From: a virus
Taxonomy: Duplodnaviria; Heunggongvirae; Uroviricota; Caudoviricetes
Reading direction: 5' to 3' (one strand)
Length of the DNA: 38,652 nt
IMG/VR virus record: IMGVR_UViG_2671180727_000010
A program made the translations under genes and the position numbers. The notes beneath the pieces were generated by a model. That model was not told where the DNA came from and did no database searches. It was given only the letters and a program-made list of their open reading frames with translations. Positions 19,934 to 21,281 of this stretch are shown in pieces; the stretch's first letter is position 1, and each line of letters opens with the position of its first letter.

Positions 19934-19985
19934 TGCAAAAAAATTTAAAAAAAACACTTGCAATCTTTTTTCGCATATCGATAAT
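19934..19985 (+). promoter_or_regulatory. Sigma70-type promoter with A-tract UP element for the three-gene cassette
   Basis: A-rich UP region, -35 TTGCAA (~19958), 16-bp spacer, -10 GATAAT (~19980); RBS AAGGAA before the ATG at 20051. Confidence 0.55.
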
Positions 19986-20050
19986 TGAACTCGTCGAAAG
20001 CGAAGACGCTAACGACAATAAATTTTAAATTTACATAAGGAAAAATTATC

Positions 20051-20701
20051 ATGGCTAACATTATCATTTCTAAAAAATCCATCGTTGAAGCTGCTTCCAT
20101 TGTATCCGATGAACTGCGCGAAAAAGCAGATCTGGCAACTCAAACATATAATGAACATTATAAAAATGGTACGCACACTAAAGCAGACAAAGCAAATATG
20201 CAAGCTGCGACCACTAAACTTGCTTACTTCATCAACAACGTTGTAAACGCTGTAGAAGACGAAAAATTATGCTCTGTTTTCTACTATGCGATTAAAGCAA
20301 GCAAACAAGCGCCAGAAGTATTTTTCCGTGATGCAATGACTAATAGTTATTCTCTGGAAAAACTGGTTTATCTGGTTAAATCCATTAAAGCTGGCAAATG
20401 TGTTTATTCCGTCGCTGATATGTCAGGATCTCGTGTATTCGCTTTAATCGATATGATTAACGACGAGATCGACACGTTCACTAATGGCGCTGTTTTCGAT
20501 TTAATGAATGAAGCTAAAAAAGCGTGTGAAATTAAATTGGACGCTGGCTATACTCAAGCCAACCAGTTGATCAATCTTTGCGAACGTCTTGGACTTGTTG
20601 AAAAAGTCAAAGGAGCTGGGAGCGCGAAAGCTGGTACTCAGCAATATCGCTTCATTAAAAATGATTTCTACAATTATTTAGCTGATGCTTTCAAAGCGTA
20701 A
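20051..20701 (+). CDS. Hypothetical protein (216 aa), first gene of an AT-rich cassette
   Basis: Strong RBS; composition distinct from flanking DNA; no recognisable motif. Confidence 0.6.
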   Translation: MANIIISKKSIVEAASIVSDELREKADLATQTYNEHYKNGTHTKADKANMQAATTKLAYFINNVVNAVEDEKLCSVFYYAIKASKQAPEVFFRDAMTNSYSLEKLVYLVKSIKAGKCVYSVADMSGSRVFALIDMINDEIDTFTNGAVFDLMNEAKKACEIKLDAGYTQANQLINLCERLGLVEKVKGAGSAKAGTQQYRFIKNDFYNYLADAFKA

Positions 20702-20749
20702 TTAATGGAATCAAGCGCCCACTATGGGCGCTTTAAAGGAGCTTTGAAA

Positions 20750-20953
20750 ATGGTCAGCTATGACAAGATCCGCGCGGAATATCGCGCAAAGTATCGCGCT
20801 TATAAACTAGAATTAATCGATGATTTAATCGCGCAACGCGACCAATTAAATTTTACGTTTTCTGATTTGCTTAACAGCAAGCGAGATTGCAAGCGCAAAC
20901 GTGAATACTTACGTTTAAGCGCATTAATCGGAAAACTTCAAAATTCTATTTAA
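20750..20953 (+). CDS. Small basic protein (67 aa)
   Basis: ATG at 20750 preceded by AAGGAG and by a stem-loop; the track ORF starting at 20705 would include the hairpin. Confidence 0.5.
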   Translation: MVSYDKIRAEYRAKYRAYKLELIDDLIAQRDQLNFTFSDLLNSKRDCKRKREYLRLSALIGKLQNSI

Positions 20954-20973
20954 TTTTTTTAAGGAGCTTAATC

Positions 20974-21204
20974 ATGTTTGTTCTTATCGCTGGCGTTAAC
21001 GTCCATAACGAATATTATGTTAATCGCATCGCTGGGATCGCTGGTTACGCTGGGCGCGCAGTCGAGTTTATCGATGAAACAACGCGTAAAATTGATTTAT
21101 TGAGCGACCAGGAGCGAAAAAAAGCAGACGTGAACGACGCTGATATATTTTTAATGTTAAAAGCGTTTGTAGAAATGGGATTTAAAATCAGTTTACACAA
21201 ATAA
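20974..21204 (+). CDS. Small protein (76 aa)
   Basis: RBS AAGGAG 7 nt upstream of the ATG; followed by tandem terminators. Confidence 0.55.
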   Translation: MFVLIAGVNVHNEYYVNRIAGIAGYAGRAVEFIDETTRKIDLLSDQERKKADVNDADIFLMLKAFVEMGFKISLHK

Positions 21205-21208
21205 AATC

Positions 21209-21233
21209 GAGCGCCCACTATGGGCGCTTTTTT
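21209..21233 (+). terminator. Intrinsic terminator (first of a tandem pair)
   Basis: GCGCCCA-cta-TGGGCGC followed by TTTTTT; the same hairpin is reused at 20715-20731. Confidence 0.75.
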
Positions 21234-21254
21234 CGTTTCCAATACTCCCACCAT

Positions 21255-21281
21255 AACGCGCCAATGATGGCGCGTTTTTTA
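21255..21281 (+). terminator. Intrinsic terminator (second of the tandem pair)
   Basis: AACGCGCC-aatgat-GGCGCGTT followed by TTTTTT. Confidence 0.7.

What the first reader, a model, noticed from the sequence alone, without database searches (positions are those of the whole stretch)
19934..21281. Self-contained AT-rich three-gene cassette with UP-element promoter, internal attenuator hairpin and tandem terminators
The unit at 20051-21204 has a near-consensus promoter with an A-tract UP element, strong RBSs and two consecutive intrinsic terminators. The exact hairpin GCGCCCActaTGGGCGC appears twice, once between gene 1 and gene 2 (with only three following T, so probably partial termination) and once as the final terminator. 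Base composition differs from the surrounding DNA. This is the architecture of a horizontally acquired moron. The products (216 aa, then 67 aa basic, then 76 aa) have no motif I recognise, so this is a candidate for an uncharacterised defence, anti-defence or toxin-antitoxin-like module.
Basis: partly seen in the sequence, partly recalled or inferred. Interest (0 to 1): 0.6.

Follow-up and report, generated by a model that had tools for sequence, protein, structure and literature searches.

The report
Silent burst operon of SSU5 phage-plasmids
This is a real, tightly built three-gene operon in an SSU5/pHCM2-type phage-plasmid, but its first gene is a core, lysogen-silent, probably DNA-binding protein of unknown role rather than an acquired defence or toxin cassette, and only the two small downstream genes are swappable cargo.

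Summary
The three ORFs (216, 67 and 76 aa), the strong ribosome-binding sites, an A-tract plus TTGCAA-16-GATAAT promoter, the exact 17-nt hairpin at two sites, the tandem terminators and the low GC are all present.

The moron reading holds only in part. The window is an SSU5/pHCM2/pMT1-type phage-plasmid.
- **Gene 1:** it is as widespread as the major capsid protein in enterobacterial members (815 plasmid records). It is codon-optimised and essentially untranscribed in the one lysogen with RNA-seq data (E. coli LF82/Cyrano).
- **Gene 1 protein:** its predicted fold is a helical N-terminal domain plus a C-terminal winged helix with a near-invariant recognition helix. No Pfam, PDB, defence or toxin-antitoxin match exists.
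- **Hairpin:** it is a terminator. Copies followed by cargo have weakened T-tracts, and terminal copies have T5-T8. A 34%-identity relative uses a different terminator.
- **Cargo:** hairpin copies bracket a variable slot holding g2, g3, g2-g3, g3'-g3 or nothing.
- **Private cis-elements:** the promoter, leader and an upstream block are more conserved than the protein and occur nowhere else in the genome.
- **Neighbour:** an FljA-family RNA-binding repressor gene is almost always immediately upstream.

Best reading: a repressed, burst-expressed lytic-phase DNA-binding factor with an attenuated cargo slot. Its function is unproven.

The parts
18930..19454 (+). Context and candidate regulator: FljA-family gene (PF03614 'repressor of phase-1 flagellin', with a weak Hfq-like C-terminal match). 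It ends at its own terminator at 19778-19803.
   Evidence: Pfam E = 2.5e-84. It lies upstream of g1 in 146 of 150 loci and also in Moellerella, where it scores 31 bits, above the cutoff. It is expressed in the LF82 lysogen. A regulatory link to g1 is inference only.
19849..19930 (+). Conserved upstream block: ATATATAAGG - N20 - ATTTATTTAGGGAACACCTTC - N12 - TTTATTTCTAGGACTTT. It is a presumed protein-binding region of unknown partner.
   Evidence: Nearly invariant in 15 lineage representatives spanning 48-100% g1 identity, and partly kept in Moellerella. It is unique in the window and in the 101-kb relative.
19934..19957 (+). A-tract (UP-element-like) immediately upstream of the -35 element.
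   Evidence: Sequence read directly. A run of A's just upstream of CTTG is invariant across the family.
19958..19985 (+). Sigma-70-type promoter TTGCAA-16-GATAAT.
   Evidence: Promoter scan, 9 of 12 matches. CTTG and (C)GATAAT are conserved in nearly all relatives, including those at 34-48% identity. The transcription start was not mapped.
19993..20016 (+). Leader stem-loop GTCGaaAGCGaagaCGCTaaCGAC at the predicted 5' end of the mRNA. As DNA it is also a near-palindrome.
   Evidence: Fold of -9.8 kcal/mol. RNAalifold predicts 7 pairs, 2 with compensatory changes. The sequence is kept almost unchanged in Moellerella.
20051..20701 (+). g1: 216-aa core protein with a helical N-terminal domain and a C-terminal winged helix (phrog_1513, function unknown).
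20714..20734 (+). Internal hairpin (9-bp stem, loop CTA) followed by only TTT. It is a leaky intrinsic terminator (attenuator) and a likely 3' stabiliser of the g1 message.
   Evidence: Across loci, all 75 internal copies have T-runs of 4 or fewer.
20750..20953 (+). g2: 67-aa basic, hydrophilic protein (phrog_6145) with its own AAGGAG ribosome-binding site. It is the ancestral but dispensable companion of g1.
20974..21204 (+). g3: 76-aa protein (phrog_1585) with its own AAGGAG ribosome-binding site. It is lineage-restricted cargo.
21209..21235 (+). Terminal copy of the same hairpin, followed by T6 (full terminator).
21255..21282 (+). Second tandem terminator AACGCGCCA-ATGA-TGGCGCGTT followed by T6. 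It is a diverged member of the same hairpin family.

Best explanation
The unit is a core operon of SSU5/pHCM2/pMT1-type phage-plasmids. It is built for a sharp burst of one protein and is kept off while the element lives as a plasmid.

A sigma-70 promoter with an A-tract drives an mRNA that starts with a stem-loop and carries a strong Shine-Dalgarno and a codon-optimised g1. A GC-rich hairpin with a deliberately short T-tract ends most transcripts after g1 and protects their 3' end. The minority that read through express the small cargo genes, each with its own AAGGAG site, before two full terminators.

g1 is a sequence-specific DNA-binding protein: a new family with a helical N-domain and a C-terminal winged helix. 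It most likely acts early in lytic development or during another non-lysogenic state. The slot after g1, bracketed by copies of the same terminator, exchanges small accessory genes among related elements.

Shown: the anatomy, the conservation, the core versus accessory distribution, silence in one lysogen, and the predicted fold. Inferred: DNA binding, timing, the attenuation ratio, and repression by the adjacent FljA-family protein or by H-NS-type silencing of the AT-rich promoter.
For: Identity of the element: it matches SSU5-type phage-plasmids.

g1 is core; g2 and g3 are accessory. The slot holds g2, g3, g2-g3, g3'-g3, nothing, or divergent g2-like ORFs.

Built for high expression: CAI 0.446, rank 4 of 54, with the capsid protein first; strong ribosome-binding sites; a conserved 5' stem-loop.

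Attenuator: internal hairpins have T-runs of 1-4 (mean 4.2 T in 8 nt). Terminal ones average 6.1 T in 8 nt; 107 of 171 have uninterrupted T-runs of 5-8, and the other 64 are extended-stem copies whose T-run follows one extra base (Mann-Whitney p = 0.001). Hairpin variants keep pairing, including loss of one C:G pair from both arms. The Moellerella relative has an unrelated terminator at the same place.

Silent in the lysogen while upstream genes are transcribed.

Private cis-elements. FljA-family synteny.
Against: - Expression evidence comes from one strain, and no induced or infection time course exists, so 'lytic or early' is inference. g1 does rise about 8-fold at 6 h in macrophages, a condition in which that paper reports no Cyrano particles above background.
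- No DNA target is identified.
- The promoter is only 9 of 12 matches and the transcription start is unmapped.
- Leader covariation is weak (2 of 7 pairs) and fits a palindromic DNA operator equally well.
- No literature mentions these proteins.
Confidence: 0.55

Rival explanations
1. One reading: a horizontally acquired moron encoding a defence, anti-defence or toxin-antitoxin-like module that acts from the resident prophage or plasmid.
For: It has its own promoter and terminators and low GC. The products are unknown. g2 and g3 are patchy and swapped among relatives. An SSU5-like plasmid as a whole was reported to reduce plasmid uptake and phage burst in Klebsiella (PMC8969562). The small cargo genes could well be anti-defence or host-takeover factors acting during infection.
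Against: g1 is core and codon-adapted. g1 and g3 are at the detection floor in the LF82 lysogen. There is no PADLOC, Pfam or NCBIfam match. The partners do not co-occur obligatorily: g1 is found alone, with g2 or with g3, which argues against a toxin-antitoxin pair.
Confidence: 0.12
2. g1 is an origin-, centromere- or resolution-site-binding protein that acts on the repeat-rich non-coding DNA just downstream (21290-21820). For example, it could be a lytic-replication initiator analogous in role to P1 RepL or lambda O.
Against: All structural scores are sub-threshold and generic for winged helices. The region lies between convergent transcription units rather than at a divergence point. Initiators are not usually codon-optimised, burst-expressed proteins. 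No AT-rich unwinding element or DnaA boxes were examined or found.
Confidence: 0.15
3. The repeated palindrome GCGCCCA-N3-TGGGCGC is primarily a DNA operator for the g1 winged-helix dimer, or a site-specific recombination site for integron-like cassette capture, rather than a terminator.
For: It is a perfect 7+3+7 palindrome with an invariant stem in most relatives, even at 48-62% g1 identity. It occurs only at this cassette in a 101-kb relative and brackets the variable cargo. An unrelated viral contig uses the same palindrome around a -10 box.
Against: Every copy is followed by a T-run whose length tracks its position. Stems do vary, with paired indels. The 34%-identity Moellerella g1 keeps the recognition helix, promoter and leader but has a different terminator and no palindrome. 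No integrase is adjacent; the tyrosine recombinase is about 50 kb away. The conserved flanks allow ordinary homologous recombination to swap cargo.
Confidence: 0.07

Closest known systems
Phage morons (promoter-gene-terminator insertions, as defined in lambdoid phages)
   Same: An autonomous transcription unit with its own promoter and terminators and lower GC than its surroundings. The downstream small genes vary between close relatives.
   Different: g1 is core to the lineage, codon-adapted and silent in the lysogen. g2 and g3 have no promoter of their own and depend on read-through.
Attenuated operons with an internal intrinsic terminator or stabilising hairpin that sets gene ratios (for example the f1 gene VIII terminator, or REP hairpins in malEFG)
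   Same: A GC-rich hairpin directly after the abundant first product, with a weakened U-tract when genes follow and full terminators at the end.
   Different: Here the same hairpin sequence is reused at both borders of an exchangeable cargo slot and multiplied in tandem in some relatives. Termination efficiency has not been measured.
Winged-helix DNA-binding proteins (ArsR/SmtB, MarR, TubR, Orc1/Cdc6 winged-helix domains)
   Same: The predicted alpha1-beta1-alpha2-alpha3-beta2-beta3 topology, with a conserved polar recognition helix and a Gly/Lys-rich wing.
   Different: There is no sequence-level membership in any Pfam or NCBIfam winged-helix family. The roughly 125-residue N-terminal helical domain has no specific relative. 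The family is confined to about 24 clusters at 50% identity among 1.8 billion proteins.
[quoted passage not shown]
   Same: An FljA-family gene is the conserved upstream neighbour. The g1 leader and translation-initiation region are sequence-conserved and faintly resemble the fliC initiation region (AUAGGAU...AUCAUG).
   Different: No binding or regulation has been shown. The resemblance is short and AT-rich. The phage-plasmid protein is kept in non-flagellated hosts, which suggests a different target but does not identify it.

Membership tests
Moron / lysogenic-conversion cassette | Own promoter and terminator flanking the gene(s) | tested here: met
   Promoter-like site and tandem terminators, conserved across relatives.
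Moron / lysogenic-conversion cassette | Patchy presence among otherwise related phages | tested here: not met
   g1 tracks the capsid protein and the helicase one-to-one. The feature is met only for g2 and g3.
Moron / lysogenic-conversion cassette | Expressed from the repressed prophage | tested here: not met
   In the LF82 RNA-seq, g1 scores 5.9 and g3 5.0 against a median of 9.8 and a moron cutoff of 49. This is one strain only.
Type II toxin-antitoxin module | Homology of either partner to known toxin or antitoxin families | tested here: not met
   No Pfam, NCBIfam or PADLOC hit above threshold.
Type II toxin-antitoxin module | Obligate co-occurrence of the partners | tested here: not met
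   g1 occurs alone, with g2 only, with g3 only, or with both. Record counts are 815, 517 and 368.
Known anti-phage defence systems (PADLOC-DB 2.0) | A profile match to a defence protein | tested here: not met
   The only hit is g2 against PDC-M47B at E = 0.027 and 12 bits.
Winged-helix DNA-binding proteins | alpha-beta-alpha-alpha-beta-beta topology and structural similarity to solved winged helices | tested here: met
Winged-helix DNA-binding proteins | Sequence-specific DNA binding | not testable with these tools
   The only support is the conserved recognition helix G[YF]TQxxQ.
Intrinsic (Rho-independent) terminator / attenuator | GC-rich stem-loop followed by a U-tract, with pairing maintained in evolution | tested here: met
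Intrinsic (Rho-independent) terminator / attenuator | Measured partial termination at the internal copy | not testable with these tools
   Inferred from T-runs of 4 or fewer at all 75 internal copies.
Integron-like gene cassettes (attC) | Adjacent integron integrase, and imperfect attC palindromes with extrahelical bases | tested here: not met
   There is no recombinase in the neighbourhood. The palindrome is perfect and is followed by T-runs.
CorA/MIT metal-ion transporter (database label of g2) | A protein of about 300 aa with two C-terminal transmembrane helices and a CorA domain | tested here: not met
   g2 is 67 aa, GRAVY -0.65, pI 9.7, with no CorA Pfam hit. The label is inherited from the SSU5_119 annotation.

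The most novel reading that the evidence does not exclude
g1 could be the output of a phage-plasmid-specific switch. An FljA-family RNA-binding repressor, retained even in elements of non-flagellated Klebsiella and Yersinia pestis, would hold a burst-ready mRNA silent through its conserved leader and initiation region. Once released, the new-family winged-helix protein would commit the element to lytic development, or would fire lytic replication from the adjacent repeat-rich region. That would make this locus the unrecognised plasmid-to-phage decision module of a clinically widespread lineage that includes pHCM2 of S. Typhi and pMT1 of Y. pestis.
Probability: 0.15. Interest if true: 0.7.

Novelty: new member of a known kind. 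Interest (0 to 1): 0.4.

Why it matters
SSU5-type phage-plasmids are common. They account for more than 800 plasmid records across Klebsiella, E. coli, Enterobacter, Salmonella and Yersinia, including pHCM2 and pMT1, and they carry resistance genes. Little is known about how they switch between plasmid and phage life.

A core gene that is silent in the lysogen, engineered for burst expression, predicted to bind DNA and surrounded by private cis-elements more conserved than the protein itself is a reasonable candidate for part of that control or for lytic replication. The terminator-bracketed slot shows how small accessory genes are shuffled in this lineage.

If none of this proves true, the unit is simply one more uncharacterised phage early gene with tidy regulation.

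Tried and rejected
- **Remote homology for g1, g2 and g3.** I searched Pfam, PHROGs, NCBIfam, PADLOC, PDB sequences (single sequences and profiles) and an exhaustive HMMER search of 1.84 billion representatives. This produced only 'unknown function' PHROGs and same-lineage homologues.
- **g3 structure.** The model had pLDDT 64.5, too low to search.
- **Rfam.** Nothing reached a gathering score. A 32-bit Hrs1 match on the minus strand of the terminators is probably only hairpin similarity.
- **Palindrome as a g1 operator or a mobile element.** Rejected for three reasons. It is followed by position-dependent T-runs. It is absent from the Moellerella relative. The 11 or so g1-less loci among the 104 viral-contig stretches carrying it are about what chance gives for a 17-mer, by my rough estimate.
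- **A regulon for the upstream motifs or a shared operator near the repressor gene.** None was found in a complete 101-kb relative.
- **TATATAAGG as a general phage promoter motif.** Rejected, because it is local to this locus.
- **Loci for the 33-43% identity homologues in viral contigs.** None were found.
- **Literature on the proteins, by accession or locus tag.** Nothing was found. One 2026 preprint on SSU5-type copy-number heteroresistance could not be opened.
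Full report
**What the window is.** The 1.6 kb around the finding matches Escherichia phages CMS-2020a, PhiR41_1 and Cyrano at 92-97% identity and Salmonella phage SSU5 at 81%. It also matches plasmids of about 100-115 kb in 240 complete E. coli genomes and in 769 PLSDB records from Klebsiella, Escherichia, Enterobacter, Yersinia, Salmonella and Citrobacter. All E. coli matches lie on plasmids and none on chromosomes. The window is therefore part of an SSU5/pHCM2/pMT1-type phage-plasmid. 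Annotated relatives call all three genes 'hypothetical protein'.

**Check of the observation.** The sequence shows the following.
- An A-tract at 19934-19957.
- TTGCAA-16-GATAAT at 19958-19985.
- A Shine-Dalgarno and ATG for a 216-aa ORF (20051-20701).
- The hairpin GCGCCCACTATGGGCGC at 20715-20731, followed by TTTaaagg.
- An AAGGAG site and a 67-aa ORF (20750-20953).
- An AAGGAG site and a 76-aa ORF (20974-21204).
- The same hairpin at 21211-21227, followed by T6.
- A second terminator at 21255-21276, followed by T6.

The exact 17-mer occurs only at those two places in the window, against about 0.07 expected by chance. Both copies lie in a 31-nt direct repeat. The terminal region folds far better than shuffles (z = -5.6). 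GC is 0.37-0.38 against about 0.47 for the window. The promoter is 9 of 12 matches rather than near-consensus, and the consensus scan alone is close to chance. Its credibility comes from conservation, described below.

**Core or acquired.**
- tblastn against PLSDB finds g1 in 815 records and the major capsid protein of the same element in 957.
- The 166 capsid matches below 60% identity come mostly from Acinetobacter (142 records), Aeromonas and other non-enterobacterial hosts, none of which appear among the g1 matches.
- Per-genus counts agree for Klebsiella (346 vs 340), Escherichia (217 vs 200), Enterobacter (91 vs 91), Yersinia (62 vs 62), Salmonella (49 vs 49) and Citrobacter (25 vs 25).
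- In complete E. coli genomes the cassette is in 240 genomes and the neighbouring core helicase in 234.
- g2 is in 517 records and g3 in 368.

So g1 is a core gene of the enterobacterial lineage, while g2 and g3 are accessory. g1 has the lowest GC3 among 54 ORFs in the window but the fourth-highest codon adaptation index, 0.446, with the capsid protein first at 0.627. The CAI weights are the Sharp and Li E. coli values recalled from memory, so only the ranking should be relied on. g1 favours A/T-ending optimal codons. Low GC here goes with selection for expression, not with foreign origin.

**The variable slot.** I classified about 90 related loci. A copy of the hairpin sits 15-25 nt after the g1 stop codon in nearly all of them. 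The following arrangements occur between that copy and the last copy:
- g2 only (SSU5 type);
- g3 only (Cyrano type);
- g2-g3 (this window);
- a 45%-identity g3 paralogue plus g3, with a hairpin between them;
- a 51%-identity g3 (Y. pestis pMT1);
- nothing at all.

In lineages where g1 is 53-62% identical, the slot holds ORFs that align with g2 at 29-39% identity over 15 invariant columns. g1 plus g2 therefore looks ancestral, and g3 looks like a later addition. Each cargo gene brings its own AAGGAG site directly after a T-run.

**Terminator or binding site.** Several features first suggested a protein-binding site.
- The stem is invariant in most relatives.
- The loop occurs in both orientations (CTA and TAG, which are reverse complements) in several lineages.
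- One lineage at 48% g1 identity carries two or three tandem copies spaced 44 nt apart.
- The palindrome occurs nowhere else in a complete 101-kb relative.

Three results argue instead for a terminator.
- Every copy is followed by a T-run whose strength depends on position. All 75 internal copies (with cargo downstream) have uninterrupted runs of 1-4 T and a mean of 4.2 T in 8 nt. Terminal copies average 6.1 T in 8 nt; 107 of 171 have uninterrupted runs of 5-8 T, and the other 64 are extended-stem copies whose T-run follows one extra base (p = 0.001).
- Divergent relatives change the stem while keeping pairing. Examples are GCGCCA-GAAA-TGGCGC, which has lost one C:G pair from both arms, and CGCGCtCCA-TAG-TGGGCGCG. 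The second tandem terminator in this window, GCGCCA-ATGA-TGGCGC, belongs to the same family.
- The Moellerella plasmid, whose g1 is 34% identical, keeps the recognition helix, promoter and leader but ends the gene with an unrelated hairpin followed by T7.

The loop flips are the small inversions expected at palindromes.

**Expression state.** The E. coli LF82 study (PMC9928086) lists transcriptome values for every gene of Cyrano, the SSU5-type element of LF82. CYRAN_113 is g1 and CYRAN_112 is g3. On a scale with a floor of 5, overnight LB cultures give 5.9 for g1 and 5.0 for g3. The element's median is 9.8 and the authors' cutoff for a moron is 49. The genes just upstream on the same strand are clearly transcribed: helicase 46, CYRAN_117 114, and the FljA-like CYRAN_114 18 rising to about 130-270 in other conditions. 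g1 reaches only about 40-50 at 6 h inside macrophages. The cassette promoter is therefore off in this lysogen. This is one strain, and no induction time course is available.

**The proteins.**
- *g1 sequence searches.* There is no Pfam, NCBIfam, PADLOC or PDB-sequence relative, even with a profile that includes members at 31-48% identity. An exhaustive search of 1.84 billion cluster representatives finds only 24.
- *g2.* It is 67 aa, pI 9.7 and hydrophilic. Its 'MIT family metal ion transporter' label in SSU5 and PHROGs is a mis-annotation.
- *g3.* It is 76 aa. Its model was too poor to use, and PDB profile searches found nothing.

**Private cis-elements.** An alignment of 15 lineage representatives spanning 48-100% g1 identity shows several elements that are nearly invariant, more so than the protein:
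- the A-run, CTTG (-35) and CGATAAT (-10);
- the leader ATCGAAAGCGAACACGCTAACGAT;
- an upstream block, ATATATAAGG-N20-ATTTATTTAGGGAACACCTTC-N12-TTTATTTCTAGGACTTT.

Most of this is still recognisable in Moellerella. The leader forms a stem-loop at the predicted 5' end of the transcript. RNAalifold predicts 7 pairs, 2 of them with compensatory changes. As DNA the leader is also a near-palindrome, so an RNA stabiliser and a DNA operator cannot be told apart here. None of these motifs, nor any 14-mer of the promoter or leader allowing one mismatch, recurs elsewhere in the complete relative. Whatever binds them acts locally.

**Conserved neighbour.** The gene immediately upstream (annotated 18930-19454) is a strong match to PF03614, the FljA repressor of phase-1 flagellin, with a weak Hfq-like C-terminal match. 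It precedes g1 in 146 of 150 loci with enough flank. The Moellerella counterpart also passes the Pfam cutoff. FljA-type proteins block translation of fliC mRNA (Bonifield and Hughes 2003 and Yamamoto and Kutsukake 2006, as cited in PMC2652032). From general knowledge, Klebsiella and Y. pestis are not flagellated, yet their elements keep this gene, which suggests a target inside the element. The gene is expressed in the LF82 lysogen while g1 is silent. The g1 initiation region (ACAUAAGGAUUAAUAUCAUG in SSU5, AUAUAUAGGAUUAAAAAUUAUG in a 62% lineage) faintly resembles the E. coli fliC initiation region CAAUAUAGGAUAACGAAUCAUG. That match is short and AT-rich, so I treat it only as a lead.

**Conclusion.** Its meaning is different from what was proposed. 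g1 is not an acquired moron but a core gene that is silent in the lysogen and built for burst expression. It encodes a predicted winged-helix DNA-binding protein of a new, narrow family. The internal hairpin is a leaky terminator that sets a high g1 to low cargo ratio, and copies of it bracket a slot in which small accessory genes are exchanged.

I favour a role in the non-lysogenic (lytic or early) programme, with repression possibly exerted by the FljA-family neighbour or by silencing of the AT-rich promoter. An origin- or site-binding role on the adjacent repeat-rich non-coding DNA is the main alternative. A defence or toxin-antitoxin function from the resident plasmid is unlikely for g1 and remains open only for the small cargo genes acting during infection.

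Noticed in passing
window 18930-19454 (+): An FljA-family gene (PF03614, with a weak Hfq-like C-terminal match) is conserved directly upstream of g1 in 146 of 150 loci. It is present even in elements of non-flagellated Klebsiella and Y. pestis, and it is transcribed in the LF82 lysogen.
   Followed up: partly
window 21290-21820: A roughly 530-bp non-coding region lies between convergent transcription units. It holds four CCGTTTC(C/T) repeats (21696-21806), GCGC-rich short repeats and AATCAC repeats. The CCGTTTCCCGAAA motif is conserved in SSU5 and Moellerella, and Moellerella adds about five tandem TCTCAAATAAGG-like repeats. It may be an origin, a packaging site or a resolution site.
   Followed up: partly
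window 20715-20731 and 21211-21227; loci L003, L012, L017, L022, L044, L075 and others: The 3-nt loop of the terminator palindrome is found as CTA or as its reverse complement TAG in several independent lineages and at either copy. These are recurrent small inversions at a perfect palindrome.
   Followed up: partly
window 20750-20953: The database label 'MIT family metal ion transporter / CorA' (SSU5_119, phrog_6145) for this 67-aa basic hydrophilic protein is a propagated mis-annotation.
   Followed up: yes
L096 about 2140-2215 and L172 about 520-600 (unrelated viral contigs): The same palindrome GCGCCCATAGTGGGCGC and a sister palindrome CTGCCCATAGTGGGCAG flank a TATGCTATAAT -10-like box just upstream of an ATG. 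In another phage this looks like an operator-type use of the sequence.
   Followed up: no
L146 1498-1602 and L112 8081-8141: A lineage with 48%-identity g1 has three or two tandem 44-nt repeats immediately after the gene. Each repeat is the hairpin followed by T6.
   Followed up: partly
window 22350-22381 (-): The promoter region of the convergent 160-aa gene (21821-22303, phrog_1641) resembles the g1 promoter: CACTTTGACG...ACGATAATT against CACTTGCAAT...TCGATAATT, 72% over 32 nt. That gene is syntenic in 136 of 139 loci.
   Followed up: no
window 19458-19766 (+): The ORF after the FljA-like gene has a signal-peptide-like N-terminus (MKSILLPPLFLLCSVAANA) if it starts at 19458. RefSeq relatives annotate a shorter 83-aa product that lacks it.
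   Followed up: no
L005 (contig JAEWTL010000044.1) and protein P0094: g1 homologues at 84-90% identity are labelled as a Bacillota MAG and as Finegoldia magna. This is most likely contamination or mis-binning of an enterobacterial phage-plasmid.
   Followed up: no
window 21217-21283 (-): There is a sub-threshold Rfam match to the Hfq-regulated sRNA Hrs1 (32 bits against a gathering score of 56, E = 0.0013) on the minus strand of the two terminators. It is probably only the similarity of two hairpins plus a U-tail. The terminators are bidirectional.
   Followed up: no
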